A program made the position numbers and the translations under genes. The notes beneath the pieces were generated by a model, which saw nothing but the letters and a program-made list of their open reading frames with translations, was not told where the DNA came from and ran no database searches. Positions 25,452-38,524 of a DNA stretch of 50,134 nt are shown here, piece after piece; the stretch's first letter is position 1, and each line of letters opens with the position of its first letter. Source of the stretch: Candidatus Omnitrophota bacterium (GTDB lineage Bacteria > Omnitrophota > Gorgyraeia > JAGLLT01); contig JAGLLT010000008.1 in assembly GCA_023140385.1 (NCBI GenBank), forward strand, positions 1-50,134, given 5' to 3'.

Positions 25452-25892
25452 GTGAGACGAATTCTAAAGTTATTTATTTTCCTAACGATTTTTCTTCTAA
25501 TAGCCGCCAGCATTTTTTATTCTATTGATAAACAGATCCTTGTAGAAAGGCTTATTTCACGTCTACCCATAGACAAGCACATACCCTATGGTAGAGGCAC
25601 AATCCTGATAAAGGAAGTAAAGGGAAATAGGCTGGTGGGTGTAGAAATTTATGACAGACACGATCCTCTAAAAGAAGTGGTAATTCGAGCCGAAAGCGCC
25701 GACTTTATTATTGATGACCGAGGCAGGAAAATGGATATAATCTTACGTAACGGAACCATTGAAGAAAAAATGCTTAAAAATGAAGACAAAGTGTACTTGA
25801 TGAGTTTTAAAGAATATACAATGACTATTGATCCCACGGAGATTAACAAAAAGCTAAAAAAGCTTAGGAAAAAGATTGAGGAGCACGATTAA
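25452..25892 (+). CDS. Membrane-anchored protein resembling the LptF/G periplasmic beta-jellyroll
   Basis: N-terminal TM; GNRLVGVEIYD...IRAESA...LRNG pattern. Confidence 0.45.
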   Translation: MRRILKLFIFLTIFLLIAASIFYSIDKQILVERLISRLPIDKHIPYGRGTILIKEVKGNRLVGVEIYDRHDPLKEVVIRAESADFIIDDRGRKMDIILRNGTIEEKMLKNEDKVYLMSFKEYTMTIDPTEINKKLKKLRKKIEEHD

Positions 25893-25918
25893 GCAGAAAA
25901 TAGTAAAAAAATGAACCC

Positions 25919-25954
25919 AAAAGAACAACCCGCGAAACGTGAGGTTGTTTTTTT
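25919..25954 (+). terminator. Intrinsic terminator
   Basis: AACAACC...GGTTGTT stem followed by T tract. Confidence 0.65.
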
Positions 25955-25970
25955 GTCTCTATTAGAGCCC

Positions 25971-25999
25971 TTGACAATGAAATACATATATTGTAGTAT
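25971..25999 (+). promoter_or_regulatory. sigma70 promoter of tRNA-Ser(GCT)
   Basis: TTGACA-17 bp-TAGTAT. Confidence 0.7.
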
Positions 26000-26022
26000 G
26001 ATTACTGCTAAAGGGTTAATAC

Positions 26023-26116
26023 GGAGAGGTGCCTGAGTGGCTGAAGGGAGCCGCCTGCTAAGCGGTTGTCCTGCCTAAAAGCGGGACCCTGGGTTCAAAT
26101 CCCAGCCTCTCCGCCA
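26023..26116 (+). tRNA. tRNA-Ser(GCT)
   Basis: GGAGAGG/CCTCTCC, GCCGC-CTGCTAA-GCGGT, long variable arm, GTTCAAATC, CCA. Confidence 0.95.
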
Positions 26117-26291
26117 GCGTACCACGTAGGGTACGGTGCGTGTCTAGTACCCGATGTGGTACTAGGCGCGGCACCGCATAGGATACGTTTAATACCAAAA
26201 TTAGTCTGGTACAGGGCTGTGCCCCGTACCAAGAACAAGTCTGGTACAGGGCTGCGCCCCGTACCCGAAAGTACTTGAGTGGTACGGGGAG
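26115..26291 (+). repeat. Cluster of GTAC-family palindromes after tRNA-Ser(GCT)
   Basis: CGTACC/GGTACG, CTAGTACC/GGTACTAG, two AGTCTGGTACAGGGCTG.GCCCCGTACC units, CCCCGTACC/GGTACGGGG. Confidence 0.9.
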
Positions 26292-26297
26292 TTGATT

Positions 26298-27074
26298 ATG
26301 CCGGATACTTTTTTATTGACTATACTTTTTATTGCCGTAACTACGGTAATTACCGCTTTCGTTAAAGGGAAGAGCAGGGATAGGTGCTTGATGGACTTGT
26401 CCGGCGACGTGGTTGAAGTTGAGATGGTAAACGGCAAGGTTATCTGGGGCAGGCTGAAGGTAGAAAGCACGGGTTTAGAGTTAAGCTATTTAGAAAAACA
26501 CAAAGACGAAGACGGACATGACGAATATAGCTATATGCTATATAAAAATGAGTTTGCGGGTATACAGGCTCTGGTGTTGTATCACGATAAACTGGATGAA
26601 AAGAGCAGAAAAAATAGAGAAGAAGAGTTAAAAAAAACATACCGCCCCGGCTTTTTCAGGCGCTTTAAGAGAAAGATAAGAAACTTCTTTGCCACCGTCA
26701 GAGACTCTATTTTAGAGGTAGTTAATCTTTTTATGGGCCAGGCAAAGAAGATGTCTCCGGCTAAAGGTGTACTCACTTCTCAGGATAAATACGTTAACAA
26801 GATGAAGAGCAATCTTTTTGGTATGTCGGCGACCGCTTATGAGCCCCTTCTGGAAAAGCACATCGGTAAAAAGGTTGTGCTTGAACTGCGAAGAGGAGAT
26901 AAATCATGTGAGTACGTGGGTGTTTTAAAAGACTACACGGCGGAGTTTATTGAAGTTATTGATATTAGTTACAAAAAAGAAAGCAGTGAAGCGGCCAAAA
27001 AAACAGACTTTGTAGTTCCCCGCTCCCTCGGTATCATAAGGCACTTAGCAGAACAACAAATCTTGCGCCCATAA
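26298..27074 (+). CDS. Conserved-looking hypothetical protein with N-terminal TM helix
   Basis: 258 aa ORF from ATG after GGGGAG; no family recognised with confidence. Confidence 0.75.
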   Translation: MPDTFLLTILFIAVTTVITAFVKGKSRDRCLMDLSGDVVEVEMVNGKVIWGRLKVESTGLELSYLEKHKDEDGHDEYSYMLYKNEFAGIQALVLYHDKLDEKSRKNREEELKKTYRPGFFRRFKRKIRNFFATVRDSILEVVNLFMGQAKKMSPAKGVLTSQDKYVNKMKSNLFGMSATAYEPLLEKHIGKKVVLELRRGDKSCEYVGVLKDYTAEFIEVIDISYKKESSEAAKKTDFVVPRSLGIIRHLAEQQILRP

Positions 27075-27080
27075 TAGCTT

Positions 27081-27141
27081 CCTCCTTCGCTAAAGCTTCC
27101 GCCTTCGCTCTAAAGCTACGGCGGACGGGGCGGCGGACGGG
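27081..27141 (+). repeat. Nested CCTTCGCTAAAGCT-type palindromes (CTTCG family)
   Basis: CCTCCTTCGCTAAAGCT followed by CCGCCTTCGCTCTAAAGCTACGGCGG; related reverse copy at 45012-45036. Confidence 0.75.
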
Positions 27142-27172
27142 ACGCTATGGCTTAAGTAGAAAATTCACAGAT

Positions 27173-27249
27173 GCGCCCATAGCTCAATTGGACAGAGTAG
27201 CGGTCTACGAAACCGTTGGTTCCCCGTTCGAATCGGGGTGGGCGCGCCA
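27173..27249 (+). tRNA. tRNA-Arg(ACG)
   Basis: GCGCCCA/TGGGCGC, GCGGT-CTACGAA-ACCGT, GTTCGAATC, CCA. Confidence 0.95.
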
Positions 27250-27394
27250 CCGTACCATTCGCAAAATTTTTAAATTTTGCTCAGGTACGGTGCGCGGCAC
27301 AGGGTTAGTTTAGTGTTGAGTATGTCTAATACAGAGATTAGTCTGGTACAGAGGCGTGTCCCGTACCCGAAAGCATTTGAGTGGTACGGGGAGG
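27248..27394 (+). repeat. GTAC-family palindromes between tRNA-Arg and GIY-YIG gene
   Basis: CACCGTACC-[GCAAAATTT/AAATTTTGC insert]-GGTACGGTGCGCGGCAC; TTAGTCTGGTACAG...CCCGTACCCGAAAG...GAGTGGTACGGGGAG as at 26201-26291. Confidence 0.9.
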
Positions 27395-27401
27395 ATTAAA
27401 A

Positions 27402-27662
27402 ATGTATTTTGTTTATGTACTTATAAGTAAAAAGGATAAGGCTTTTTATATTGGTTTTACGGAAAATGTTGAAAAGAGATTGAGTGAACACAATAGAGGC
27501 GAGGCGGTAAGCACCAAGTCAAGAAGGCCGCTTGTATTGATGTATTATGAGGCGCACTTATCGAAGATAGACGCATTGAGAAGAGAAAGGTATTTTAAAT
27601 CTAGTAAGGGAAGAACTACGTTAAAGCAAATGCTCTGCGAGAGTTTGAGAAGCGGTTTATAA
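27402..27662 (+). CDS. Stand-alone GIY-YIG nuclease (86 aa)
   Basis: FVYVL...FYIG, KRLSEHN, STKSRRP, RRERYFK. Confidence 0.92.
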   Translation: MYFVYVLISKKDKAFYIGFTENVEKRLSEHNRGEAVSTKSRRPLVLMYYEAHLSKIDALRRERYFKSSKGRTTLKQMLCESLRSGL

Positions 27663-27671
27663 TTGATAAAG

Positions 27672-28133
27672 ATGAATGATGAATATTATATGCGGGAGGC
27701 GCTGAAGCTTGCCGTTGAAGCTTTTAAGGCGGATGAAGTGCCGATGGGGGCGGTGATAGTACATAAAGATAGAATTATTGCCAAAGCCCACAATCAAATA
27801 AAGACCCTAAAAGACCCCACGGCTCACGCTGAGATGATTGCCATTACTCAGGCGGCCAGTTATCTTAAAAACGAACGCCTCATTGATACTGTGATGTATG
27901 TAACCATTGAACCTTGCGCGATGTGTATGGGCGCCTTGATACTGGCCAGAGTTAACAGGCTTGTTTACGGAGCGGATGACAGTAAAGCCGGCGCCTGCGG
28001 TTCGGTGATGGATTTATCAGATAATAAAAAATTAAATCACAGCATAGAGGTTAAAAACGGCATTCTTGAAGATAGCTGCCGTGATATTATACAAGAGTTT
28101 TTTAAATTAAAAAGAAAGAAGATCCTTCGCTGA
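27672..28133 (+). CDS. tadA: tRNA adenosine(34) deaminase
   Basis: DEVPMGA, DPTAHAEM, TIEPCAMC; adjacent to its substrate tRNA-Arg(ACG). Confidence 0.95.
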   Translation: MNDEYYMREALKLAVEAFKADEVPMGAVIVHKDRIIAKAHNQIKTLKDPTAHAEMIAITQAASYLKNERLIDTVMYVTIEPCAMCMGALILARVNRLVYGADDSKAGACGSVMDLSDNKKLNHSIEVKNGILEDSCRDIIQEFFKLKRKKILR

Positions 28134-28160
28134 AGAAGCGGTGAAAAGCAATTATAACAT

Positions 28161-28196
28161 GGAGAGGTGCGAGAGCGGCTTAATCGGCGCGCTTGG
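28161..28196 (+). pseudogene. tRNA-Ser(GGA) 5' half, copy 1 (divergent allele)
   Basis: 36 nt matching 28625-28660 with 3 substitutions; ends at ...GCTTGG within the anticodon. Confidence 0.85.
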
Positions 28197-28263
28197 CCAC
28201 CGCCTATGGCGGGGTCCCGCTCTCTTCATTGAAGATACTTCTTTCGGAGAAGCGGTGAAAAGC
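28197..28263 (+). repeat. Structured 67 bp insert following tRNA 5' half (copy 1; copy 2 at 28547-28613)
   Basis: CCACCGCCTATGGCGGG.TCCCGCTCTCTTCATTGAAGATACTTCTTTCGGAGAAGCGGTGAAAAGC present twice, one mismatch. Confidence 0.9.
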
Positions 28264-28275
28264 GAAACAAGAACT

Positions 28276-28524
28276 ATGTTTTACGTTTATATCTTGAAAA
28301 ATAGTGAAAGCAAATATTATACTGGAATGACATCTAAGCCCCCTGAAGCCAGATTAAAAGAACATAATTCTAATGCAAATAAGTGGACAAAAAATAAAGG
28401 TCCTTGGGGTCTTATTTATGCAAAAGCTTTTGAAACAAAAAAAGAAGCTTGGTTAAGAGAGCGTCAGATTAAAAAATATAAAGGCGGAAGTGCCTTTAAA
28501 GAATTAATCCGGAGAGGTGCGTGA
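28276..28524 (+). CDS. Stand-alone GIY-YIG nuclease (82 aa)
   Basis: YVYIL...YYTG, ARLKEHN, GPW, LRERQIK; stop codon lies inside the tRNA 5' half copy 2. Confidence 0.9.
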   Translation: MFYVYILKNSESKYYTGMTSKPPEARLKEHNSNANKWTKNKGPWGLIYAKAFETKKEAWLRERQIKKYKGGSAFKELIRRGA

Positions 28525-28546
28525 GCGGCTTAAACGGCACGCTTGG
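28511..28546 (+). pseudogene. tRNA-Ser(GGA) 5' half, copy 2
   Basis: 36 nt identical to 28625-28660. Confidence 0.85.
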
Positions 28547-28624
28547 CCACCGCCTATGGCGGGATCCCGCTCTCTTCATTGAAGATACTTCTTTCGGAGA
28601 AGCGGTGAAAAGCAATTATAACAT

Positions 28625-28712
28625 GGAGAGGTGCGTGAGCGGCTTAAACGGCACGCTTGGAAAGCGTGTGTACTTAACGGTACCCTGGGTTCGAATCCCA
28701 GCCTCTCCGCCA
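28625..28712 (+). tRNA. tRNA-Ser(GGA)
   Basis: GGAGAGG/CCTCTCC, CACGC-TTGGAAA-GCGTG, variable arm GTAC/GTAC, GTTCGAATC, CCA. Confidence 0.95.
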
Positions 28713-28715
28713 GCC

Positions 28716-29012
28716 TAATCCCATAAGCAGTTAATTCCCTTGACGTTATATATAAAAGTAGTAAAATCAAGGTGTTAACTGCTTTTTGTATTTTTATATA
28801 AATCTTGCATATTTTTATGTTTTTTGAGACTTGTGACACGAAAATGACACGTTATAGCAAATAATAGTTTAACCTAAGGGAGGTTATTAATGGATGGTTA
28901 TGATGCTGCGTTTGTAGCCCCCTGCACATAGACTTCCCTTATTAACAAGTTGACTACCGAAGTTAACGTAGTCACTAAAAATATTTCCAACATAATGTCT
29001 ATGGTAGAAAAA
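28716..29012 (+). repeat. About 300 bp island left-end sequence duplicated at 35390-35686
   Basis: Constant 6674 bp offset; first ~100 bp essentially identical, then diverged. Confidence 0.9.
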
Positions 29013-29207
29013 AGCTGGTCTCAACAAAAACTCGCTCAGGAAGCAGGATTATCCTTTAATGCAATAACAAAAATTGAACAGGGACTAGCAAAATATCCAA
29101 CACTAAAAACTCTTAGCAAATTGTCTAATGTTTTTCAAATTGGCATAGATGAATTAGTTGGAAGAGGAAAAACAAATTTTATTAGGATTAAAAATGGAAA
29201 ATTATGA
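28890..29207 (+). pseudogene. Chimeric pseudogene: N-terminus of a 35564-like gene fused in frame to an XRE HTH
   Basis: MDGYDAAFVAPCT* (TGG to TAG relative to 35564) continuing in frame to VEKS, then WSQQKLAQEAGLSFNAITKIEQG HTH. Confidence 0.75.
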
Positions 29208-32200
29208 TAATACTCACAAAATCTTAACAAAAACTGGACCTATTAGAAAAGGCTTCGATTATCAAGATGCTTGTGCTGCCTTCTTGTTTGTAAAATGGCT
29301 TAGGTACCCAGCAGAAAAAAAATGGGTTAAATTGGAAGCAAAAGAGTGTGGCTTTTTGGATGACATTGTTTTTGTAAGTAAGGATAATACACTATTTCTA
29401 AAACAAATTAAGTATTCATGTCATCCAGAAACCCCGCAAGATGAATGGAGCTTGGAGTCAATATTAAAAGAACCACAAGGGAAAAAAACCAAAAGACAGT
29501 CTTTATTTAAAAGATGGTTTCTGTCTTGGCAGGAATTTCGAGAAAAAAAGTCATTTCGCGAAGTAAAGGCAGAATTACTAACCAATCGAAAAGCCTCTGA
29601 AAACATAATTAATGTTGCTGAAATGTGTGATAACTCTACGGCAATAATTATTGATATCAAAAAGCTAAAAAAATTGTCTCCCGAGCATTATCAAGAGATG
29701 CTTAGGCAAATAAAGCCCTACAAAAAGAAGCATTTAAGGACTTTTTTTAATAATTTTAAATTTAATTTTGACCACTATTCTTTAGAAAGAATGTGGACTC
29801 AAACAGAAGTGATTTTTAAAGAACTGGGTGGGAGTGGTGGTGCATGGTTAGCTTTTAAGGAAAAAATTAGAGAGTGGGCTATAGAACAAGATAAGCCATC
29901 TAAAGAAGGCTTAATAAAAATAGAGGACTTAAGAAGTGCGGCAGGGTGGGAAAAATTAAAAGCGTTAAATCAAGAATTTTCAATGCCAGACGACTTTGAG
30001 TTGTTTGATGAAAGAATTGAGAAAAAGTTAATAAGTGATTTTAAAAAACGAAAAGGTGGCCTGCATATTTTGTATGGACTTCCTGGAGTTGGCAAGAGTA
30101 CTTTTTTGTCACACTTATATAAAAAGTTAGAAGGAGCCAATATCCCGGTATTAAAGCACCACTATTTTTTAACAACGAGCGATCCTGATTTCTATGAACG
30201 ACTTGAACATGAAAGGGCAGAAGAAGGATTAAAGAACGAAATTTACCAAAAATTTAGAGATTTATTGGGAGAACATGCTAACCAAAATCAAAAACAGGCA
30301 AAATTACAAGATTGGTTATCTGCAATCAATAAACAGTTTAATGCCAGAAAACAAGCCTTAGTAATAATCGTTGATGGGCTTGACCATGTTAAAAATTATA
30401 GTGACATAAAAAACTTGAATAAATTTTTGATGCAGATACTTCCGTGCTTAGAAGAAATGTGGATTGTTTTAGGAACACGGTTGATGTCTGAAGAAAATCT
30501 TCCCCCAATAATATATGAACATTGTTCATTTAAACAGTGGATAGAAGTTAAACCATTTTCAAAAAGTGTCGTTGCAAATCTAATACGAAAAAACATTAAA
30601 AGTAAAAAGTTAAGGATTCAAAAGGACAGATATATTATTAGAAAATTTACAAACAAATTTTATCAGCTTACAGAAGGACATCCATTGCATATTAGGTATT
30701 CACTTGAAATCTTATTTGAATTTGGTAAAACAAAAAATATTACAGATTATGATTTAGCTAATTTACCACCCTATCAGGGAAATATCGAGAAATACTACAA
30801 CATATTATGGTCTAAATTAAGACAAGAAGGTAAAAGCGTTGCGATCTTAATAGCAGGTGCTAATTTTTTCTTAAAAGGCCATCAAGTCTTTGAAGTTCTT
30901 GTTTCCAATGCAGTACGTATGGATGCGCTTTTAGAAGGTTTTGGGCAAATAAAACATTTATTGAAAGAGATTCGTCGAGGGGTCACTTTTTTCCACACGA
31001 GTTTTTCGGAATACATTAGACAAACGCAAGAGTTTCAAATTTCGAACCCTACAATAAAAAAAGAGCTAAGGAATTGGCTTACAAGCAAAGCTCCGGAAGA
31101 GCTGTGTTGGCAACAATGGCTTAGATTAGAATATGAGTTAGGAAATTATGAGTTAGTTCTTTCGAATTTAACAAAAGATTGGGTTATAGAAGCGATAGAA
31201 AAACAATGCTCTCTAAAGCTAATTAATGAACATTTGAGTATGGGCATAGATGCCGCCCTTCAACAGGGAAATTTTTCAAAAGGAGCATTCCTGGGGTTAT
31301 TGTTGAATGTGGTTGATAATATAACAGTAGAAAATGAAGATGATTATGAAAAGTTGATAATGTTTTTATTGAAAGAAAAAGATGGAAAAGATATAGATAG
31401 GTATATATTCGAAGAAAACATTCCAAGCTATTCCTCTTCCAAATTAAATGCTTTAGCTACACTGGCAGAAGAAAAAGGAAGAATGGATATTTTGGAGGTA
31501 ATATTTGAGGAGCTTAACACTGGATATGATAGAGATGAAGAATACTCAATGCGAAATCGAGGGCAACGAGAAATAACATTAAGTAAAGTTGTGGCATATT
31601 TAAATATTGAGCCTAAAAGGGTTTTAAATTGGATAAGGAAATTTGATAACAGTGTAAAAAAGGAAGAATTGCTATCATGCTATGTGTTTGGATTGCTTAA
31701 AGCTCGCAAGTTTACAATAATTGAAAATTTGATCAGCAAAAAAATATCACAAGAAGAAAAAAATATTGTATTGAATCAGTATACGAAATATTGTTTCGAA
31801 AATAAAATTGACATTAGTGGCTTTATTTTAAAAAATGGTAAACACATTGTGGGCTTACAAGAAATGTTATTGCTTGCCGTGCTTAATAAGCTCCCTGGAG
31901 ATGTGAGTACTTTAATCCCAGAGCATCAAGTATTCCCACTTGCATTAGAAGATTACAAAAGTAAAGAAGTTTCAGCTCTTGCTATAACCTTTTTTAATTG
32001 TTACACGAGTGCTTTAATACTTAGTTGTGGAGCAAAGAAAACTGTTGTTGAGCATTGGATTAAAAGCGGGGAATTTTTTTCTTGGAGCCGTGAAGCAGCT
32101 AAGAGCCTTGTTGAATTAGGGATGGAACATGGAGAAAAAATAAAAAATGGAATAAATATTAAATATAGCGATCTAATTGACAAATTGAAAGATTTACATG

Positions 32201-35200
32201 TTCTAGATTGGAGAGAAGATAGAGATATCTACGGAATATATAAATCATTTAGAACAGCGGCAGAAAAAGTTTTTAACTTATTAAAAAATATTAAGCGATG
32301 GCAAAACGATAATTTCAAAATTGCTGAAAATGAATTTATTCAATATTGCGATTCAGATTTTTTTGGCAAATATGTAATGTTGAAAAACTTAGCTTATGAA
32401 CGAGAACCGTTTTTAGAGGAAAAAGCATACGTGAAATTTATCACCGAAGAAGAGAAAAGCCTTAAAAATGATGTTATATATTTTAGGGATAGAGTGGAGC
32501 AATATGTAGATTTAGCACATCTTGCGGGCTTACATAAGGACAGCGATAGAATAAAAGTTTTTACTAAAAAGGCAATTTTAAATATGCTAGCTTATGGGGC
32601 TAAAGATGCTTATCATTCTGATGTCTTAGAGTGCGTAGAAGCGTGTCATAAGGCAGGGTCGAAAAAAGGAGATTCATGGCTAAAAAGAATAGCTCCATTG
32701 ATAGAACAAGCAGAAAATTATACCGAAGGTGCTAAGTATTTACAAATAGATCTTGCAGAAAAACTTGCTTTAATAAACCCAGAAAGCTTAAAAAGCTATT
32801 ATATATATCATGCTAATAATGAAAATTTATTTTTGGCACAGGATATTTTTCCCTTTATTGTTTCTATAACTGTTAAAAATAACGAAATTGATAAAGCTGT
32901 ACTAAAAACAGCAATAGATAGAGAGTCAATTGAAAAATTACAGGACATGGCTAAAAAAAATCCTACAGTAGAAACTATTTTAAATGAGAACAGGGAATAT
33001 TTTAATAGTTTAGTAACTTTTCCTCCCAAAGAAGAGCGGGGCACGAACTGCAACCATTCGTCTTTAGCCAATGATTTAACTGATTATAAGTCGATTGCGC
33101 CAAGTAATCTCAAAAACCATTTATTAAATATAAAAGATTTATATCAGAGAAATAGGTATCTGAGCGGATGGAGTCAGTGTTGGCTTTCTGAGGAGGGAGA
33201 AGAAGAGGCGTATAAAATAACGATAGATTGGATCGAAGAAACGGGAATAGAAAAGGCCGATCACGAAGTGCTAGATTTGTTATATCCGTTAGCTTTTAAA
33301 TTTGAAAACAAAGAAAAGAGCTTCTTTTTATTATGTAATGCCCACACTAAAGGATATGGGTGGTCAGGAAGATTTTTTTCAAGAAAAGAAGCAGTTGTAA
33401 AAAGATGGGATTTTTTAAAGCAACATTTCCCTGAAAAATTTAAGGATTTTTGTAAAGAAACATTAACTAAGGTTGACCGAGAGGGAAATTCAAAATTTGT
33501 TGCATATTTGCCTGTTCCAAGAGGTGTAGAATTTATGACTTTTTTTAATGTTCTGGACATCGCAGAACAAATGACGGAAGTTGCAGTAACCTTTGCAGAA
33601 GATTTAATGGCAGATTTAAGCATTCCAAAGCTTGTGTGGCAAGAGTGGAGGGGTAAAAATTCTTTAGATGTTCTTCTTGAGCGATTTAAGTGGCCGAGTC
33701 CACTTGTGCGTGAAAGAGCAGCTACAGCATTATGTAATCTTATCTCTAATGAAGAGACATCGCAATTAGTTGTTACACAACTATTAAAATGGGGAAGTTT
33801 GCAAGGGCTTGAAAGCATAACAGTAATGACATTGCTCCCCTTTGTGAAATCAGCAAGACTTAATAAATGCAACGGATTGGTGGCCTATAAGACAATAAAA
33901 GATAACATTAATAATTCTTCGATAAATTCAGAATTTCTCTTAAGAGAAGTTGCATTAGCAATAGAAGGAGAAGTTCTAAAAGAAGAAGAGTTTGTTGAAG
34001 AAAGAGAACCGGAAAATCTAGAATCTTGTCCAAAGGATTATAAACCTAATAAATTTTTCCTTCGTACTCAAAAAGCTTTTTTGCCACCCATTCATGTGAT
34101 AAGGGCAGAAAAAATCGAAAAAAATACAGGGTTTAAATTTATACAACAGTGGGCTTGGGATGCAGATCGAATTAGAAAAAAGATTGGTATTGAAGAATCT
34201 TTAAGGGATGTAATGGATTTCATGGGAGGAAGATATCAACCTAGTATGCCAGCATTTTCTAGTAAAATGTCGGAAATTTATAGGTCAGCTTTTTTGAGAA
34301 CGCTGTTTCTTTGTTATAAGGAGAATAAAATACCAAAAGGTCTTTTATTTAAATGGACGTTCTCATTGTGTCCAATAGATATCAATTTTTGGGAAATTAA
34401 TGAACGCAATTCTCCTGGTTGGTGGCCAGGCTTAAGCCAAAAATCAAATGGGAAAATAGATATTTCTCAAGGGAAAATTCTTACAGACTTAGAAAGCTTA
34501 TTGGATAAACTAGATTTAGATGAAAATAAGATAGTTGGTCTGCATGGCCCCGCTAAACCTTTTGACGGATGGCATAGTGAAAATCTTGGCACTAAAATTC
34601 TCGTGGTACCTTTTGCTTATGAAATAAAAGGAGCGCAGTTACCAAGCGCAAAAGAAATAGGAGAAGTTATTGCTTACTCTCCTGTTATCGAAGTTCCTTC
34701 AATAACAAAAAAGCCCTTTTGTTTTTTTGAGCAAGAAAATATGCCTTTAGACGAAAGTAACGTTGGAGGGATTAAAGTTAAAGATGCTGTAATATTTCCT
34801 TTAGTTGCGCGGATACACACGCATCCAATTAACTATTGGAAAGCATGTATTGGGCGCCATGCATCTTTTGGTATTGCCGAAAACTTATTAAATGAGGGGC
34901 TTAAGCAGGGATACGAAGCAAATAATTGGTTCTATATGTTTAACGAAGAAAAAGTAATCATAAGTTATGCTTGGAATATAGGAATAATAGAACGGCATAA
35001 TAGTGATTTTGATGCTCCATCTGGACAAATAATAGAAATAAAGAGAACATGGTTAAAAAAAATTTTAGATGAACAAAAGCTAAGGGTAGGATATTTTATT
35101 AAAATGAAATTTATTCATAGACAATATTTACATGAAAAAGCTAGTATTTATGAGGAAGATAAATTACTTAATTTTTCTCCTATAATTGTTCAAAGGGGTA

Positions 35201-35208
35201 AGTGGTGA
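29194..35208 (+). CDS. AVAST-like STAND NTPase with N-terminal Cap4/PD-(D/E)XK nuclease (Avs3a-like, ~2004 aa)
   Basis: GFDYQD...LDDI...QIK nuclease motifs; GLPGVGKS, HHYFL, IVDGLDHV, GHPL; long helical C-terminal region. Confidence 0.8.
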   Translation: MENYDNTHKILTKTGPIRKGFDYQDACAAFLFVKWLRYPAEKKWVKLEAKECGFLDDIVFVSKDNTLFLKQIKYSCHPETPQDEWSLESILKEPQGKKTKRQSLFKRWFLSWQEFREKKSFREVKAELLTNRKASENIINVAEMCDNSTAIIIDIKKLKKLSPEHYQEMLRQIKPYKKKHLRTFFNNFKFNFDHYSLERMWTQTEVIFKELGGSGGAWLAFKEKIREWAIEQDKPSKEGLIKIEDLRSAAGWEKLKALNQEFSMPDDFELFDERIEKKLISDFKKRKGGLHILYGLPGVGKSTFLSHLYKKLEGANIPVLKHHYFLTTSDPDFYERLEHERAEEGLKNEIYQKFRDLLGEHANQNQKQAKLQDWLSAINKQFNARKQALVIIVDGLDHVKNYSDIKNLNKFLMQILPCLEEMWIVLGTRLMSEENLPPIIYEHCSFKQWIEVKPFSKSVVANLIRKNIKSKKLRIQKDRYIIRKFTNKFYQLTEGHPLHIRYSLEILFEFGKTKNITDYDLANLPPYQGNIEKYYNILWSKLRQEGKSVAILIAGANFFLKGHQVFEVLVSNAVRMDALLEGFGQIKHLLKEIRRGVTFFHTSFSEYIRQTQEFQISNPTIKKELRNWLTSKAPEELCWQQWLRLEYELGNYELVLSNLTKDWVIEAIEKQCSLKLINEHLSMGIDAALQQGNFSKGAFLGLLLNVVDNITVENEDDYEKLIMFLLKEKDGKDIDRYIFEENIPSYSSSKLNALATLAEEKGRMDILEVIFEELNTGYDRDEEYSMRNRGQREITLSKVVAYLNIEPKRVLNWIRKFDNSVKKEELLSCYVFGLLKARKFTIIENLISKKISQEEKNIVLNQYTKYCFENKIDISGFILKNGKHIVGLQEMLLLAVLNKLPGDVSTLIPEHQVFPLALEDYKSKEVSALAITFFNCYTSALILSCGAKKTVVEHWIKSGEFFSWSREAAKSLVELGMEHGEKIKNGINIKYSDLIDKLKDLHVLDWREDRDIYGIYKSFRTAAEKVFNLLKNIKRWQNDNFKIAENEFIQYCDSDFFGKYVMLKNLAYEREPFLEEKAYVKFITEEEKSLKNDVIYFRDRVEQYVDLAHLAGLHKDSDRIKVFTKKAILNMLAYGAKDAYHSDVLECVEACHKAGSKKGDSWLKRIAPLIEQAENYTEGAKYLQIDLAEKLALINPESLKSYYIYHANNENLFLAQDIFPFIVSITVKNNEIDKAVLKTAIDRESIEKLQDMAKKNPTVETILNENREYFNSLVTFPPKEERGTNCNHSSLANDLTDYKSIAPSNLKNHLLNIKDLYQRNRYLSGWSQCWLSEEGEEEAYKITIDWIEETGIEKADHEVLDLLYPLAFKFENKEKSFFLLCNAHTKGYGWSGRFFSRKEAVVKRWDFLKQHFPEKFKDFCKETLTKVDREGNSKFVAYLPVPRGVEFMTFFNVLDIAEQMTEVAVTFAEDLMADLSIPKLVWQEWRGKNSLDVLLERFKWPSPLVRERAATALCNLISNEETSQLVVTQLLKWGSLQGLESITVMTLLPFVKSARLNKCNGLVAYKTIKDNINNSSINSEFLLREVALAIEGEVLKEEEFVEEREPENLESCPKDYKPNKFFLRTQKAFLPPIHVIRAEKIEKNTGFKFIQQWAWDADRIRKKIGIEESLRDVMDFMGGRYQPSMPAFSSKMSEIYRSAFLRTLFLCYKENKIPKGLLFKWTFSLCPIDINFWEINERNSPGWWPGLSQKSNGKIDISQGKILTDLESLLDKLDLDENKIVGLHGPAKPFDGWHSENLGTKILVVPFAYEIKGAQLPSAKEIGEVIAYSPVIEVPSITKKPFCFFEQENMPLDESNVGGIKVKDAVIFPLVARIHTHPINYWKACIGRHASFGIAENLLNEGLKQGYEANNWFYMFNEEKVIISYAWNIGIIERHNSDFDAPSGQIIEIKRTWLKKILDEQKLRVGYFIKMKFIHRQYLHEKASIYEEDKLLNFSPIIVQRGKW

Positions 35209-35563
35209 ATAATGCAGAAGGCGGGTGATCTCGGGGAGACGCCTGTCGAGTGCATGTGCGACGCTAAGAGTCCACCAAGAGGACAACGAAGAAGTAACCC
35301 ATGTCAGACCTAATCTTGATTTATTGAGTGTGCTTCCCTGAGGTCGCTCCAAAATGAGTTCGAATTTTATCGAATAAGCACTGCCAGTGTAATCCCATAA
35401 GCAGTTAATTCCCTTGACGTTATATATAAAAGTAGTAAAATCAAGGTGTTAACTGCTTTTTGTATTTTTATATAAATCTTGCATATTTTTATCTTTTTTA
35501 AAATTTATGTCACGAAATTGACACGCCATAACAAAAGATAATTTAATTTAAAGGAGGTCATTT

Positions 35564-36850
35564 ATGGATGGCCATGATAATGCGTTTATAGCCCCCGACA
35601 CATGGATCCTCCCTATTGCTAAGTTGACAGATGAAGTTAACGTATTCACTAAAAATATTTCCAATGTGACGTCTATGGTAGAAAAAAGTTTGGATTTTAG
35701 ATGTAATAGTGCACCAGCTCGCGCGATATTTGATTTGAAGGATACTCTTTCTATAGCAAGTAACAATATTTCATCTATTATATCATGTGCTCATAATTTT
35801 GCAGAAATTGCAGAAACGCCGTCATCACTTTTGTTGGACAGTCAGAAAATAGCTTCTCTTTCGTCTGATTTAGTTGTTGACGCAACAAGCTCAATTTTAG
35901 CCACTACGGCATCAATGCTTAGCAGTGTTCGCAGTAATATTGAGAGTCTTCATATTACTGATTATAATGGAGTAGACGTCTTTAGCATGGAAAAACTGTC
36001 CGCATTATCTATTCCAGACCAACCAGTTGCTATAAATTCATTATCTCAAGATAGTCTTATTTCGTTGGGCAATAGTCTGCAGAATAATACCTTTACAGTT
36101 AAAAGTTTAATAAACACCTCCTTGGCGACATCACGGCTTAACGTAGAGATTTTTACCAACCCCGTGGAAAGTGTAGATACTTATCTTGCTGATATGAACG
36201 AAACAACTATACATTTTAACTCACTATCAGCTTCTGTATATAATGAAATGACTTGTTCTCCTTTGATTGATACAAATAGTTTACTCTTCCAGGCGCCTAC
36301 AATTGAACCATATGCTGCGATATCTGCTGTTGCTGTTCTTGGGGGCTTGGATGAAGATGCTTTAGATCGATTTTGTGTCAAAAGTACAGATAACTTCCTT
36401 GATGCATTAGGAGATGGACTTGAGACGCGTTTGCAAGCAGTGAATCCACAATTAGCCAGCGTATATCGAGAGGGTATGGTGGCGGTAAAATCAGGCCATG
36501 AAGGATGGATTCGTCACGCAGGGGTGTCTTTCAGAACTTTACTTGATCATCTTCTGCGTTATTTGGCGCCTGATAAAAAACTTAATTCATACTTTGAAAA
36601 TCCAAAAGATAATATGATAGACGGAGAATTTAGCCGCAATTCGAAACTTCGATATATATTTCGTGAAATCGCTTGTGGGTCATATTCGAAAATGGCAGAA
36701 CAAGATATAAAACTTGCCGAGGCAACATTTTTCCCATCAAACGAAATAGTGCATAAGCTATCATCACCACTTTCAGAACAACAAATGCGCGTATTTTGCC
36801 GTCGTGTTCAAGGATGCGTATCCGTTATTTTGGAAGTAGCGGGGCATTAA
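35564..36850 (+). CDS. Protein with C-terminal predicted pPIWI-associating nuclease (pP_pnuc_1-like, HEPN-related) domain
   Basis: RHAGVSFRTLLDHLLRYLAPD...SRNSKLRYI...NEIVH pattern after a Ser/Leu-rich N-terminal region; AAGGAGG RBS. Confidence 0.6.
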   Translation: MDGHDNAFIAPDTWILPIAKLTDEVNVFTKNISNVTSMVEKSLDFRCNSAPARAIFDLKDTLSIASNNISSIISCAHNFAEIAETPSSLLLDSQKIASLSSDLVVDATSSILATTASMLSSVRSNIESLHITDYNGVDVFSMEKLSALSIPDQPVAINSLSQDSLISLGNSLQNNTFTVKSLINTSLATSRLNVEIFTNPVESVDTYLADMNETTIHFNSLSASVYNEMTCSPLIDTNSLLFQAPTIEPYAAISAVAVLGGLDEDALDRFCVKSTDNFLDALGDGLETRLQAVNPQLASVYREGMVAVKSGHEGWIRHAGVSFRTLLDHLLRYLAPDKKLNSYFENPKDNMIDGEFSRNSKLRYIFREIACGSYSKMAEQDIKLAEATFFPSNEIVHKLSSPLSEQQMRVFCRRVQGCVSVILEVAGH

Positions 36851-36878
36851 TCGTTAGGGAATAACAGGTATTGGATAA

Positions 36879-37808
36879 ATGATATTGCTATATGTTGCTA
36901 TTTCTATACCCTTTATAATTGCCCTCTTCTCTCTTCTTAAAGACTGGAACGATGAGAAGCGGAGAATTTATATATCATTACTCATATTAACAATATGTGC
37001 CTTTATGGTAAGTTGTCTATGCACCTATTTCTCTGGGAGGGAAAGTGAAGAATTAAAAAAAGAAAATTATTTGAAAGATCGAAGGCAAATAACCCTAACT
37101 CTCCTCTGTAGCAACAGACTCCCTCTAAAACGCCCACTATCAAAAATAGAAAAAAATCTAAGAGCTAATAATTACGATTCAGCAATAGCTTTTGCCGAAG
37201 CAATTTTATTATATGCGAACACATTAGCGGACGGTGAAAGGCAGCAGGTAGTTCGTGATATATATATTTATTTTATCTATAATGCAGAAGATCGCAGGGA
37301 AAAAATTAAGCTTCTTGAATTAATAAATATAGAATATCCTGAAGAATTTGCCGAAGTGCATCGTTTGCTAGGGCAGCTTTATGCTGAAGAGGGACGCTTT
37401 AAGGATGCGATGCTAATTTTGAATAAAGCATTATATATAGAAGATGACAATAGTATAACGTATCATTTACTTGGTCGCGTATCTTTTGCCGAAGGAGATT
37501 GGGAGAAAGCGCTAAAATATTACAAAAGAGGAATAGAAAAAAATGAGAAATATGTAAATTTAAATATTGAAATAGGAGATATTATTTGGTGTTACACAAA
37601 TGACGTGGAAAAAGCAAAAGGGTACTACGAGAAGGCCATTGAGAATAAAGACATAAAAGATTGGTATTATTCTGCATATGAAGAGGATTTAATTAAGAGA
37701 CAATCTGTGGTCAGTAACAAGGATCTTCAATACAATATAAAACCAGCAGATAAAATCACTTTCTTTTTAAAAGAAACACCCTTTGTTGTAGAAGAAAGTA
37801 AAAAGTAA
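36879..37808 (+). CDS. Membrane-anchored TPR protein
   Basis: Two N-terminal TM segments; repeats LLGQLY..EG...DA, LLGRVS..EG..EKALKYY. Confidence 0.75.
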   Translation: MILLYVAISIPFIIALFSLLKDWNDEKRRIYISLLILTICAFMVSCLCTYFSGRESEELKKENYLKDRRQITLTLLCSNRLPLKRPLSKIEKNLRANNYDSAIAFAEAILLYANTLADGERQQVVRDIYIYFIYNAEDRREKIKLLELINIEYPEEFAEVHRLLGQLYAEEGRFKDAMLILNKALYIEDDNSITYHLLGRVSFAEGDWEKALKYYKRGIEKNEKYVNLNIEIGDIIWCYTNDVEKAKGYYEKAIENKDIKDWYYSAYEEDLIKRQSVVSNKDLQYNIKPADKITFFLKETPFVVEESKK

Positions 37809-37815
37809 AAATAAT

Positions 37816-38149: not shown

Positions 38150-38163
38150 AAGGAGGTGAGAAG

Positions 38164-38301
38164 GTGATAGAGATTAAATTTAGCAGACATACGCTGTCGA
38201 CTTTTGAAAAGATGCATTATGCGTGGGTCATCAAGGTGCTTATGACATGTATGGTTCATTTAGGGAAAAGCATTAAGATAATTACAATAGTGTTTAAATA
38301 G
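38164..38301 (+). CDS. Small ORF (45 aa), possible DUF4258-like remnant
   Basis: AGGAGGTG RBS; MIEIKFSRHT...SIKIITIVFK; below the ORF-track cutoff. Confidence 0.4.
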   Translation: MIEIKFSRHTLSTFEKMHYAWVIKVLMTCMVHLGKSIKIITIVFK

Positions 38302-38311
38302 GAGGTTAATT

Positions 38312-38515: not shown

Positions 38516-38524
38516 TAATAAGAC

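What the first reader, a model, noticed from the sequence alone, without database searches (positions are those of the whole stretch)
28133..28712. Tandem tRNA-Ser(GGA) 5' halves broken inside the anticodon, bracketing a GIY-YIG gene
Seen, in order: [GAAGCGGTGAAAAGCAATTATAACAT] - 5' half (28161-28196) - 67 bp insert - GIY-YIG - 5' half (28511-28546) - same insert - AATTATAACAT - intact tRNA (28625). Both halves stop at the same base, after GG of the GGA anticodon. The insert can close on itself (CACCGC/GCGGTG), contains internal hairpins (TCTTCA/TGAAGA, CTTCT/AGAAG; alternative CCGCC/GGCGG), and ends in AAAGC(G), the sequence that follows the break in the intact tRNA. The nuclease's last codons and TGA are supplied by tRNA sequence. 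Inference: repeated site-specific insertion at the anticodon loop, or a structured tRNA-half-derived RNA that works with the nuclease.
Basis: seen in the sequence. Interest (0 to 1): 0.85.

Follow-up and report, generated by a model that had tools for sequence, protein, structure and literature searches.

The report
GIY-YIG cassette nested in tRNA gene
A tiny nuclease gene has lodged itself inside a serine tRNA gene, pushing aside the old front half and bringing a replacement so the tRNA still works; the same layout recurs at many tRNA genes in many bacteria and appears undescribed.

Summary
Two 36-nt 5' parts of tRNA-Ser(GGA), each followed by the same structured insert, bracket an 82-aa GIY-YIG gene upstream of the intact tRNA. 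It is not a one-off.

- A second locus in the same genome, at tRNA-Gln, has the same layout.
- Of 90 loci holding relatives of this protein in the same class, 55 have the ORF directly upstream of a same-strand tRNA. In 40 the stop codon lies inside the tRNA, and 50 of the 55 carry an upstream partial copy of that tRNA.
- In 17 loci the copy breaks exactly after the second anticodon base. A conserved double GC hairpin ("X") follows, and in 16 the tRNA sequence then resumes before the nuclease start codon.
- Same-genus genomes show an empty site, with the native promoter sitting in front of the old copy.
- The layout also occurs in other phyla.

Best reading: a selfish UPF0213/Slx1-like nuclease cassette inserted at the anticodon, which rebuilds the tRNA gene with its own 5' part. 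The window holds one full unit, one nuclease-less unit and a fragment of a third. Nuclease-driven homing is inferred, not shown. The closest analogues are fungal mitochondrial mobile endonuclease ORFs that carry replacement gene ends. I found no description of the bacterial tRNA form.

The parts
27663..28133 (+). tadA (tRNA adenosine deaminase), the native upstream neighbour. Its last ~16 nt are overwritten by insert-derived sequence.
   Evidence: Pfam MafB19-deam 5.2e-42 and dCMP_cyt_deam_1 2.2e-30. In three class relatives (G013, G019, G015) tRNA-Ser(GGA) starts 39-41 nt after the GA(A/G)TT(T/C)TT(T/C)AA motif of tadA.
28118..28149 (+). Fragment of a third copy of the insert (its 3' part), spanning the tadA stop codon.
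   Evidence: Alignment of 28090-28160 with 28554-28624: the last 27 nt are identical and the preceding ~17 nt are similar. Removing it restores the spacing seen in relatives.
28150..28160 (+). Native leader AATTATAACAT (ancestral tadA stop region plus spacer), copy 1.
28161..28196 (+). h1: displaced older 5' part of tRNA-Ser(GGA), positions 1-36, ending after the second anticodon base.
   Evidence: 33 of 36 identical to the tRNA. The differences include a compensatory D-stem change (A12:T23 instead of T12:A23); A12:T23 is the state seen in same-genus G001 and same-family G003.
28197..28258 (+). X1: double-hairpin insert (CCGCC/GGCGG hairpin, then a longer CCCGC...GCGG hairpin).
   Evidence: Fold of 28197-28263: -27.5 kcal/mol, z = -3.0, 2 of 200 shuffles as good. 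Homologous insert in G078. Family structure with covariation.
28259..28264 (+). tRNA sequence resumed (AAAGCG, the six bases that follow the break in the intact tRNA: third anticodon base onward).
28276..28524 (+). GIY-YIG nuclease gene, 82 aa, UPF0213 / bacterial Slx1-like minimal form. The last 14 nt, including the TGA stop, lie in h2.
   Evidence: Pfam PF01541 9.4e-17. PDB 1zg2 (UPF0213 BH0048) 6.6e-8 and 1ywl 3e-6. Y5, Y15, G17, R26, H30 and E62 are invariant in 14 relatives.
28511..28546 (+). h2: 5' part of tRNA-Ser(GGA), identical to the intact gene.
   Evidence: 36 of 36.
28547..28608 (+). X2: second copy of the double-hairpin insert (one difference from X1, in a loop).
28609..28624 (+). 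AAAGC (shared by the tRNA just after the break and the ancestral tadA end: a microhomology joint) plus native leader AATTATAACAT, copy 2.
28625..28712 (+). Intact tRNA-Ser(GGA), the only gene for this anticodon found in the genome.
   Evidence: ARAGORN; Rfam tRNA 52.8 bits.

Best explanation
The region is a small selfish cassette sitting inside the tRNA-Ser(GGA) gene.

One unit consists of three pieces:
- a conserved double GC hairpin (X) with a few resumed tRNA bases;
- an 82-aa stand-alone GIY-YIG nuclease gene of the UPF0213 / bacterial Slx1-like type;
- the cassette's own copy of tRNA positions 1-35/36.

The unit lies at the anticodon, between the second and third anticodon base. The resident 5' part (h1) is left stranded upstream behind the native leader. 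The cassette's 5' part is fused to the resident 3' part, so one working tRNA gene remains immediately after the nuclease ORF. The ORF borrows its last codons and its stop from the tRNA.

Transcription most likely starts at the native tRNA promoter and runs through old half, X, nuclease and tRNA (inferred).

The window holds one complete unit (X1-GIY-h2), one nuclease-less unit (X2-leader-tRNA 5' part) and a fragment of a third inside the tadA end. The joints show microhomology, as expected if the locus was broken and repaired repeatedly from misaligned copies.

What is shown: the anatomy, its recurrence at many tRNA genes and in several phyla, filled and empty sites within a genus, conservation of the nuclease's key residues, and conservation and covariation of X.

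What is inferred: that the nuclease cuts the tRNA gene at or near the anticodon and that spread is by break-repair copying (homing); that X protects or stabilises the element; and that RNase P processing of the tRNA trims the nuclease mRNA.
For: **Anatomy.**

**Second locus in the same genome.** Contig C5, minus strand: an old tRNA-Gln(CTG) 5' part broken right after the anticodon, a two-hairpin insert, a GIY-YIG ORF, then the intact tRNA-Gln with the ORF stop inside it. A genome-wide search with all 39 tRNA/tmRNA genes of the genome found 5' duplicates only at these two genes, and the Gln match was only 16 nt at E = 0.018.

**Class survey.** 183 of 401 genomes have a relative at E <= 1e-8. 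Of 90 loci examined:
- 55 have the ORF upstream of a same-strand tRNA: 40 overlapping it and 15 with a gap of 3-178 nt;
- 11 have a tRNA just upstream of the ORF;
- 22 have neither, and 2 end at a contig end.

Of the 55:
- 50 carry an upstream fragment of the same tRNA, 41 of them starting at position 1-3;
- 17 break exactly after the second anticodon base;
- in 16 an insert X could be delimited, with the tRNA resuming at the next base in 15 and one base later in 1.

**X is conserved across host families** as TCCCGCC-loop-GGCGGGA(T/C)CCCGCC-loop-GGCGGG. On an 11-sequence alignment 97.3% of cells pair, 3 pairs change on both sides, the covariation score is 0.194 against a shuffled mean of 0.050 (0 of 500 shuffles reach it), and slid controls pair at 32-51%.

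**Filled versus empty sites.** G084 (filled) and G156 (same genus, empty) share flanks. The promoter-like TTGACA...TA(G/A)AAT stretch that precedes the tRNA in G156 precedes the old copy in G084. For Ser-GGA, G006, G013 and G003 have tadA-tRNA with no nuclease gene between them, while G029, G078 and G036 have one directly upstream of this tRNA; in G036 only the first 18 nt of the old copy were seen.

**Nuclease lineages follow tRNA type, not host family.** 13 changes of tRNA type on the tree against a shuffled minimum of 23. Host family: 40 changes against a shuffled minimum of 40 (54 rows).

**Other phyla.** Of 80 loci from named MAGs and isolates (Patescibacteria, Ignavibacteria, Bacteroidota, Omnitrophota and others), 28 have the ORF upstream of a tRNA, and 20 of those 28 carry an upstream tRNA fragment.

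**Mirror form.** Among 23 loci with the tRNA upstream of the ORF, 15 have fragments of that tRNA at or after the ORF end.

**Key residues are invariant**.

**Import hint.** h1 keeps the D-stem state of genus and family relatives; h2 and the intact tRNA have another state.
Against: - No cleavage activity or target is known for this protein. It is only the catalytic domain, with no DNA-binding domain like those of characterised homing GIY-YIG enzymes.
- The rebuilt tRNA gene keeps an intact anticodon region, so the usual logic that insertion destroys the target site does not hold. No sequence-based immunity was seen: the G084 and G156 tRNAs differ by one T-loop base.
- In most loci the old and new 5' parts are 100% identical. 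That shows no foreign origin and could reflect local duplication kept uniform by gene conversion.
- Break positions vary for other tRNAs: 29|30, the D-loop, or the whole anticodon arm replaced.
- 22 of 90 class loci and 34 of 80 wide loci have no tRNA nearby.
- The protein tree has 80 columns, and 43 of 86 inner branches are unresolved.
- X-like hairpins also occur without a nuclease gene, so X might be a separate element.
- The published view of this family is vertical descent and a repair role (passages of PMC1564403).
Confidence: 0.68

Rival explanations
1. A resident, vertically inherited tRNA-linked gene. The small nuclease would be a housekeeping partner of tRNA genes, for example resolving transcription-replication or R-loop damage at highly transcribed tRNA genes. 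The partial tRNA copy with hairpins would be a by-product of its action, or a regulatory leader, not a sign of mobility.
For: - The family is widespread and described as mostly vertically inherited repair nucleases (PMC1564403 passages).
- Key residues are conserved.
- Old and new copies are often identical.
- The breaks lie in tRNA loops, where displaced single-stranded tRNA-gene DNA could fold.
- The tRNA-Arg - GIY-YIG - tadA arrangement just upstream in the window is conserved in another family of the order (G006).
Against: - There are filled and empty sites within one genus.
- Only 3 of 17 Ser-GGA loci compared have the gene: the window plus 2 of 16 relatives.
- The same protein lineage occurs in many host families with no clustering by family.
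- Different tRNAs are occupied in different genomes.
- Old copies decay in different ways.
Confidence: 0.14
2. X is the real mobile unit: a hairpin element that inserts into loops of tRNA-gene copies. The nuclease gene would be its autonomous helper or merely a frequent neighbour. The window would then hold one autonomous (X + nuclease) and one non-autonomous (X only) insertion.
For: - The X covariance model matches 48 of 151 class genomes, with up to 32 matches per genome (both strands counted).
- Of 30 best loci, 16 have tRNA sequence in the immediate flank and 17 an intact tRNA within 500 nt, but only 8 have a GIY-YIG gene within 300 nt.
- X-like inserts lie in D-loops and T-loops of tRNA fragments and at a tmRNA 3' end.
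- Unit 2 of the window has X without the nuclease.
Against: - In the window's own genome X occurs only at this locus.
- 13 of the 30 model hits have no intact tRNA within 500 nt, and these may be generic GC hairpins.
- X has no coding capacity, and no mechanism is known.
- Nuclease-less copies can equally be deletion products.
Confidence: 0.1
3. The 5' half plus X is made as a structured RNA that acts with the nuclease as a guide, decoy or antitoxin-like partner.
For: X lies on the same strand, directly upstream of the ORF. It is conserved and its second hairpin covaries. The 67-nt insert folds better than shuffles (z = -3.0).
Against: - There are no RNA data.
- The whole 103-nt half + insert is not unusually stable (z = -1.2 and -1.6).
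- There is no Rfam match.
- X also occurs with no nuclease gene nearby.
- Hairpin covariation is equally expected for a DNA hairpin.
Confidence: 0.05
4. A one-off slippage duplication or an assembly artefact in this genome.
For: The 38-nt repeat 28134-28171 = 28598-28635 is not bridged by the k-mer contigs. The contig graph alone would also allow an empty site plus a 464-bp circle.
Against: - The distinct h1+X1 and h2+X2 contigs appear in several runs at single-copy depth.
- The same layout is found in long contigs of other genomes, for example a 1.97-Mb single contig of G084.
- 50 of 55 loci have the partial copy.
Confidence: 0.03

Closest known systems
Mobile endonuclease ORFs (mORFs) of fungal mitochondria that carry a replacement gene end (Allomyces macrogynus atp6; Glomus atp6, atp9, cox2, nad3). 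Passages of PMC3630166 read.
   Same: A free-standing endonuclease ORF (LAGLIDADG or GIY-YIG) sits inside a host gene together with a copy of part of that gene. The inserted part is fused to give an intact hybrid gene, and the native part is displaced as a remnant beside it. The insert is co-transcribed with the host gene.
   Different: - Here the host is bacterial and the gene is a tRNA, not a protein gene.
- The replaced part is the 5' part and the ORF lies upstream. A mirror form with the ORF downstream also exists.
- The nuclease is the minimal 80-95-aa UPF0213 type.
- A conserved double hairpin marks the break.
- In the fungal cases the ORF may be fused in frame to the host gene; here the link to the tRNA gene is only a borrowed stop codon.
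Free-standing GIY-YIG homing endonuclease SegB in the tRNA gene cluster of phage T4 (PMC2330249), and SegB-driven segmental amplification (PMC13096335). Only the starts of the abstracts in the search listing were seen.
   Same: A GIY-YIG gene lies among tRNA genes and promotes its own inheritance together with neighbouring tRNA sequence. Repeated cutting can amplify segments.
   Different: Seg proteins have a DNA-binding part (recalled, not checked here). No partial tRNA duplication or hairpin insert is described in what I saw. Those are phage genes; this is a cellular chromosome.
Integrase-borne genomic islands in tRNA genes.
   Same: The element carries a copy of part of the tRNA so that the gene stays intact, and the displaced part remains as a direct repeat. 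The same tRNA-Ser(GGA) gene carries such an island at its 3' end (28713-44918, 27-nt repeat, integrase at 38525-39580).
   Different: The GIY-YIG unit has no integrase, is 350 nt rather than kilobases long, duplicates the 5' part, and its break lies inside the anticodon.
Group I introns with homing endonuclease genes in bacterial tRNA anticodon loops (recalled, not checked here).
   Same: A mobile nuclease-linked insertion at the anticodon loop of a tRNA gene.
   Different: There is no intron: the 3' half does not follow the insert. Rfam found no intron or other family over 25500-29500 at E <= 1. The gene is restored by duplication, not by splicing.
Bacterial Slx1-like / UPF0213 stand-alone GIY-YIG proteins (PDB 1zg2, 1ywl; PMC1564403 passages).
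   Same: The protein belongs here by sequence.
   Different: The passages I read describe the family as minimal, mostly vertically inherited and probably acting in repair. They say nothing about linkage to tRNA genes: 'tRNA' occurs 3 times, and the one occurrence shown concerns a TrmH fusion.

Membership tests
GIY-YIG nuclease superfamily, UPF0213 / bacterial Slx1-like branch | Matches the GIY-YIG domain model above the curated cut-off | tested here: met
   PF01541, 61.5 bits against a cut-off of 22.6, E = 9.4e-17, residues 1-68.
GIY-YIG nuclease superfamily, UPF0213 / bacterial Slx1-like branch | Conserved Tyr...Tyr-x-Gly, Arg, His and Glu positions. Their catalytic role is established knowledge, recalled here. 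| tested here: met
   V4, Y5, Y15, G17, R26, H30, A58, E62 and K66 are invariant in 14 sequences.
GIY-YIG nuclease superfamily, UPF0213 / bacterial Slx1-like branch | Closest solved structures are UPF0213 proteins; minimal domain with no extra domains | tested here: met
   1zg2 at 6.6e-8 and 1ywl at 3e-6. These two are placed in the bacterial Slx1 family in PMC1564403. Protein length is 82 aa.
GIY-YIG nuclease superfamily, UPF0213 / bacterial Slx1-like branch | Nuclease activity | not testable with these tools
   Needs a biochemical assay.
Free-standing homing endonuclease gene | Presence/absence polymorphism at the same site in close relatives | tested here: met
   G084 filled; G156 empty (same genus); G014 without the gene and with the tRNA cassette inverted. 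Ser-GGA: the gene is present in 3 of 17 loci, the window included.
Free-standing homing endonuclease gene | Endonuclease with a DNA-binding part that reads a long specific site | tested here: not met
   Only the catalytic domain is present.
Free-standing homing endonuclease gene | The occupied allele is protected from cutting | tested here: inconclusive
   The old copy is interrupted by X at the break, but the rebuilt tRNA keeps an unchanged anticodon region.
Free-standing homing endonuclease gene | Cuts the empty allele and is copied into it | not testable with these tools
   Needs cleavage and transfer assays.
Gene-end-replacing mobile endonuclease ORF (fungal mitochondrial mORF type) | Endonuclease ORF inside a host gene, flanked by a duplicated gene part, with one intact hybrid copy | tested here: met
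Gene-end-replacing mobile endonuclease ORF (fungal mitochondrial mORF type) | The displaced native part resembles close relatives more than the inserted part does | tested here: inconclusive
   h1 has the D-stem state A12:T23 of G001 and G003; h2 and the intact tRNA have T12:A23, as in G006 and G013. Only 3 differences exist, and in most other loci the two copies are identical.
Integrase-type tRNA-integrating island | Integrase gene inside the element | tested here: not met
   The only ORF of 60 aa or more between h1 and the tRNA with a family match is the GIY-YIG gene. The integrase at 38525-39580 belongs to the separate island downstream.
Group I intron in a tRNA anticodon loop | 5' half, intron and 3' half contiguous; recognisable intron core | tested here: not met
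   No 3' half follows either insert. There is no intron family at E <= 1. ARAGORN with intron search finds only the intact gene.
Multi-copy hairpin repeat (REP/MITE-like), for the insert X | Many dispersed copies in the genome | tested here: not met
   In this genome only the two copies and the fragment at this locus were found. Other genomes have up to 32 model matches, both strands counted.

The most novel reading that the evidence does not exclude
The minimal UPF0213/Slx1-like GIY-YIG proteins of bacteria are, in large part, the nucleases of an unrecognised class of mobile element that lives in tRNA genes.

- A structure-specific nuclease cuts tRNA-gene DNA at its loops (anticodon, D, T).
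- A conserved double-hairpin module (X) is the cis-acting end. Autonomous forms carry X plus the nuclease; non-autonomous forms carry X only.
- Each insertion rebuilds the gene from an element-borne tRNA part.
- As a result the elements move tRNA gene halves between lineages and create chimeric tRNA genes across several bacterial phyla.
Probability: 0.3. Interest if true: 0.9.

Novelty: new variant of a known kind. Interest (0 to 1): 0.78.

Why it matters
- It would give a biological role to a very common, uncharacterised small protein family (UPF0213 / bacterial Slx1-like). The passages of the superfamily survey that I read treat the family as a repair enzyme.
- It would show that bacterial tRNA genes are colonised by mobile nuclease cassettes that keep the gene alive by partial duplication rather than by splicing.
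- It would explain partial tRNA copies and contig breaks next to tRNA genes in many metagenome-assembled genomes.
- It predicts exchange of tRNA gene halves between lineages.
- It offers a compact nuclease whose specificity may be set by DNA structure.
- The hairpin-in-loop inserts may also bear on how intervening sequences arise in structured RNA genes.

Tried and rejected
**Leads that went nowhere**

- Hits in G020 to the first 27 nt of the insert looked like a repeat family. Three of them (L024-L026) are hairpins inside c-di-GMP-I riboswitch-like sequences below the Rfam threshold (41-49 bits against 59), so I treated them as chance GC hairpins. The other G020 places were real tRNA/tmRNA-fragment contexts.
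- Reading the 5' half plus insert as a hidden tRNA or an intron-containing tRNA: ARAGORN, with and without intron search, finds only the intact gene.
- Sigma-70-type promoter and terminator scan of 27900-28900: 3 promoter-like sites against 1.9 expected and 3 terminator-like sites against 0.9 expected, none at a telling place.
- The 149-aa ORF directly upstream of tRNA-Ser(GGA) in G001 and G022 looked LAGLIDADG-like to me from memory. Pfam gives no significant family (best DUF7076, E = 0.032, below cut-off), so I do not name it.
- The X covariance model gave 0 matches in the window's own genome in the 151-genome run, although the window's X was one of its 11 training rows. The run used stricter filters, so its counts are lower bounds.
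- A contig joint 28220->28456 in one run, and a joint 28187->28674 with 25 foreign letters in another, were left aside as probable other organisms or repeats (short sides, likeness threshold 90).
- Literature: seven searches found no paper on bacterial tRNA-linked small GIY-YIG genes with partial tRNA copies. Subscription journals are not covered, and supplements were not opened.
- The organism's name was not worked out. The runs holding the sequence are labelled cold seep metagenome.

**Rows dropped**

- From the ranked list I analysed ranks 1-30 (loci given by the tool) and fetched 60 of ranks 31-101. The 11 left out were 10 hits within about 650 nt of a contig start and one with an internal stop.
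- Rows below rank 101, and the 126 unlisted matches, were not examined.
- The tRNA-type count on the tree used 54 of the 55 rows; the row with an unassigned four-base anticodon (L052) was left out.
Full report
**1. What is in the window**

The order is:

| Element | Coordinates |
|---|---|
| tadA | 27663-28133 |
| 27-nt leader | 28134-28160 |
| 5' part of tRNA-Ser(GGA), h1 | 28161-28196 (33 of 36 identical to the gene) |
| 62-nt insert X1 | 28197-28258 |
| AAAGCG | 28259-28264 |
| 11-nt spacer | 28265-28275 |
| 82-aa GIY-YIG ORF | 28276-28524 |
| second 5' part, h2 | 28511-28546 (36 of 36) |
| insert X2 | 28547-28608 |
| AAAGC plus AATTATAACAT | 28609-28624 |
| intact tRNA-Ser(GGA) | 28625-28712 |

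- The ORF matches Pfam GIY-YIG at E = 9.4e-17. Its last 14 nt, including the TGA stop, lie in h2.
- Both 5' parts stop after the second anticodon base.
- The 103-nt half + insert unit occurs nowhere else in the 1.5-Mb, 57-contig genome.
- Rfam reports only the tRNAs over 25500-29500 at E <= 1.
- The 67-nt insert folds into two hairpins at -27.5 kcal/mol, z = -3.0, with 2 of 200 shuffles as good. The whole 103-nt unit is not unusual (z = -1.2 and -1.6).

**2. Is it assembled correctly?**

Four public cold-seep metagenome runs of one study hold 79-91% of the sampled words. Their k-mer contigs give separate pieces, all with 0 differences and at depths equal to the flanks (about 8-12x in three runs, 14-24x in the fourth):

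- 27300-28163 in one run, and the 3' part of it ending at 28163 in the other three;
- 28142-28244 (h1 with its three variant bases plus X1) in 2 of 4 runs;
- 28234-28540 (X1 tail, nuclease gene, h2) in 4 of 4;
- 28517-28594 or -28613 (h2 plus X2) in 3 of 4;
- 28631-28712, or -28710 in one run.

So the two distinct half + insert sequences are real. The 38-nt repeat 28134-28171 = 28598-28635 is longer than the contigs' word length and is not bridged. From these contigs alone an empty site plus a 464-bp circle is not excluded. Equal single-copy depth in four runs speaks for the integrated form, and raw spanning reads are needed. These runs may include the sample the genome came from, so they are not independent of the assembly.

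**3. It is not a one-off**

- The genome has six small GIY-YIG ORFs. Four lie directly beside tRNA genes.
- One, on contig C5, repeats the whole layout at tRNA-Gln(CTG): an old 5' part (with a 36-nt hairpin insertion in its D-loop) broken right after the anticodon, a two-hairpin insert of about 120 nt, the GIY-YIG ORF, then the intact tRNA with the ORF stop inside it.
- A search with all 39 tRNA/tmRNA genes of the genome against the whole genome found 5' duplicates only at Ser(GGA) and, as a 16-nt match at E = 0.018, at Gln.
- In relatives, G029 has a 55%-identical protein reading into its own tRNA-Ser(GGA). Upstream lies an old copy (positions 1-14, a 58-nt insertion, then 14-35) followed by a hairpin and resumed tRNA sequence.

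**4. Survey in the class**

The protein finds relatives in 183 of 401 genomes of the class at E <= 1e-8. I analysed 90 loci: ranks 1-30 and 60 of ranks 31-101. The 11 dropped are listed under Tried and rejected.

- In 55 of the 90 the ORF lies directly upstream of a same-strand tRNA. In 40 the stop is inside the tRNA (overlaps of 10-39 nt, in more than one reading frame for the same tRNA). In 15 the gap is 3-178 nt.
- 11 have a tRNA within 250 nt upstream, 22 have no tRNA nearby, and 2 run off a contig.
- Host tRNAs include Glu, Asp, Asn, Ser, Pro, Arg, Val, Ala and Gly.
- Of the 55, 50 have a fragment of the same tRNA within 450 nt upstream of the start codon. In 41 it begins at tRNA position 1-3.
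- In 25 the copy ends within a few bases of the anticodon, and in 17 exactly after its second base.
- In 16 (3 Ser-GGA, 13 Glu) an insert could be delimited. The tRNA sequence resumes at the very next base in 15 and one base later in 1. It runs on for 6-19 nt and stops 3-26 nt before the start codon.

For other tRNAs the old copy is interrupted elsewhere: at 29|30 in an Asn and an Arg gene that share a homologous insert, in the D-loop, or with the whole anticodon arm replaced by a 15-20-nt GC hairpin.

**5. The insert**

- Across host families the Glu inserts read TCCCGCC-loop-GGCGGGA(T/C)CCCGCC-loop-GGCGGG(A/G). The Ser inserts of the window and G078 read C(C/T)ACCGCCTATGGCGG(G/A)GTCCCGC...GCGG.
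- On an 11-sequence alignment the two-hairpin structure pairs in 97.3% of cells, against 32-51% when partners are slid by 1-3 columns.
- Three pairs change on both sides, two of them in the second hairpin (CG, AU, GC, UA). The covariation score is 0.194 against 0.050 for shuffles, and 0 of 500 shuffles reach it. This is a small and related sample. The first hairpin never varies, so it says nothing either way.
- A covariance model of X matched 48 of 151 class genomes, with up to 32 matches per genome counting both strands. It missed the window's own copies under the stricter filters.
- Of the 30 best loci, 16 have tRNA sequence in the immediate flank, 17 an intact tRNA within 500 nt, and 8 a GIY-YIG gene within 300 nt.
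- X-like hairpins therefore keep company with tRNA genes even without the nuclease, as in unit 2 of the window. They also occur in T-loops of 3' fragments and at a tmRNA 3' end.

**6. Insertion, not ancestral layout**

- G084 (filled, one 1.97-Mb contig) and G156 (same genus) share both flanks. G156 lacks the roughly 430 nt holding the old copy, X and the nuclease gene.
- The TTGACA...TA(G/A)AAT stretch that precedes the tRNA in G156 precedes the old copy in G084. So the old copy sits at the native place behind the native promoter-like sequence.
- G014 (same genus) also lacks the gene and has the tRNA cassette inverted.
- For Ser-GGA, three class relatives have the tRNA 39-41 nt after a conserved tadA motif. 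In the window, AAG-CAA-TTA-TAA-CAT before h1 and before the intact tRNA looks like that ancestral tadA end. A 32-nt piece resembling the 3' part of X now sits inside it (28118-28149).
- The joint of unit 2 lies in AAAGC, which is shared by the tRNA just after the break and by the ancestral tadA end.
- These microhomology joints, and the 2.5 tandem units, fit repeated breakage and repair from misaligned copies. This is inference.

**7. The nuclease**

- The closest solved structures are the UPF0213 proteins BH0048 (1zg2, 6.6e-8) and EF2693 (1ywl, 3e-6). The GIY-YIG survey places both in the bacterial Slx1 family, the minimal stand-alone form (PMC1564403, passages).
- Y5, Y15, G17, R26, H30 and E62 are invariant in 14 diverse relatives.
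- On a tree of 89 proteins (80 columns, poorly resolved), tRNA type changes 13 times among 54 rows against a minimum of 23 in 300 shuffles. Host family changes 40 times against a shuffled minimum of 40.
- Lineages thus follow the tRNA, not the host family. Relatedness of the rows inflates such contrasts.

**8. Beyond the class**

A pattern scan of one genome per species returned 80 loci from Patescibacteria, Ignavibacteria, Bacteroidota, Omnitrophota, Gammaproteobacteria, Clostridia and others.

- 28 have the ORF upstream of a tRNA (10 overlapping), 12 have a tRNA just upstream, 34 have neither, and 6 end at a contig end.
- 20 of the 28 carry an upstream fragment of the tRNA.
- Among the 23 loci of both sets with the tRNA upstream of the ORF, 15 have fragments of that tRNA at or after the ORF end. 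Some are again interrupted after the second anticodon base. This is a mirror form.

**9. How it most likely works**

Shown: a nuclease ORF wedged between a partial, hairpin-interrupted copy and an intact copy of one tRNA gene; this layout recurring at many tRNAs and in many lineages; filled and empty sites.

Inferred:
- The unit (X, a few resumed bases, the nuclease gene, tRNA positions 1-35) entered at the anticodon.
- The nuclease makes the break. Slx1-type enzymes are structure-specific, which would suit tRNA-gene DNA folded at its loops; this point is recalled and cited in PMC1564403.
- Repair copies the unit from an occupied allele.
- X breaks up the direct repeats or the target in the old copy.
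- The tRNA promoter drives everything.

The unsolved point is why the rebuilt, unchanged tRNA gene is not cut again. The tandem units in this window may be the trace of exactly that.

**10. Comparison and novelty**

- The nearest known kind is the mobile endonuclease ORF of fungal mitochondria, which brings a replacement C-terminal gene part and displaces the native one (PMC3630166, passages).
- T4 SegB is a GIY-YIG homing enzyme among tRNA genes (abstract start only).
- Integrase islands restore tRNA genes in a similar way, and one sits at the 3' end of this very gene.
- None of seven literature searches found the bacterial tRNA form.
- I file it as a new variant of a known kind.

Noticed in passing
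window 28686-28712 and 44892-44918 (island 28713-44918): The last 27 nt of tRNA-Ser(GGA) are repeated exactly 16.2 kb downstream. The stretch between holds an HTH gene (28950-29207), a 2016-aa ORF (29158-35208), a pPIWI-associated-nuclease-like protein, a tyrosine integrase (38525-39580), a DNA methylase and a GmrSD-type restriction enzyme. This is an integrase-borne defence island at the 3' end of the same tRNA gene.
   Followed up: partly
window 27173-27662: A second small GIY-YIG gene (27402-27662, Pfam 3.9e-16) lies 152 nt downstream of tRNA-Arg(ACG) and abuts tadA. The spacer holds hairpins. The same tRNA-Arg - GIY-YIG - tadA order is seen in G006 (another family of the order). No tRNA-Arg fragment was found beside it.
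   Followed up: partly
window 13856-14435: Three tandem copies of a ~50-nt hairpin repeat (ATCTCTCACCCGTCTTTGACGAGTTCGAGATCC...) precede tRNA-Ser(CGA) (14041-14131). A third GIY-YIG gene (14193-14435, Pfam 6.9e-15) follows the tRNA. A similar hairpin precedes tRNA-Ser(GGA) in G003, G036 and G027.
   Followed up: no
own genome, contig C9 1483-2147 (outside the window): The last 36 nt of tRNA-His(GTG) are repeated exactly about 550 nt downstream, bracketing a response-regulator-like ORF. Upstream of tRNA-Arg(TCT) on the same contig, a four-helix-bundle-like ORF runs into a tRNA-Arg fragment that has a GC hairpin in its D-loop; the same hairpin is seen in L107. The family name of that ORF is my recollection and was not tested.
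   Followed up: no
L011 (G001) 1042-1491 and L008 (G022): In the same-genus genome and in one other family, a 149-aa ORF of no recognised Pfam family sits directly upstream of tRNA-Ser(GGA), in the place the GIY-YIG gene occupies in the window.
   Followed up: partly
L027, L028, L029 (G020); L213, L216 (G131, G077): Hairpin inserts lie between a tRNA or tmRNA 3' end and a 17-19-nt repeat of that end, with no GIY-YIG gene found by tblastn in L213 and L216; the G020 loci are only ~320 nt long and were not searched for one. In L029 a 21-nt tRNA-Ser 5' fragment, a hairpin and then the intact tRNA-Ser(GGA) follow each other.
   Followed up: partly
listing: Many relatives of the nuclease gene lie 56-80 nt from a contig end on the strand that would put a tRNA at the very end of the contig. 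This suggests that these duplicated tRNA parts often break short-read assemblies. Those rows were not fetched.
   Followed up: no
L207 (G014) around 270861-270940: Between the same flanking genes as in G084 and G156, the promoter-tRNA-Glu cassette lies in the opposite orientation.
   Followed up: no
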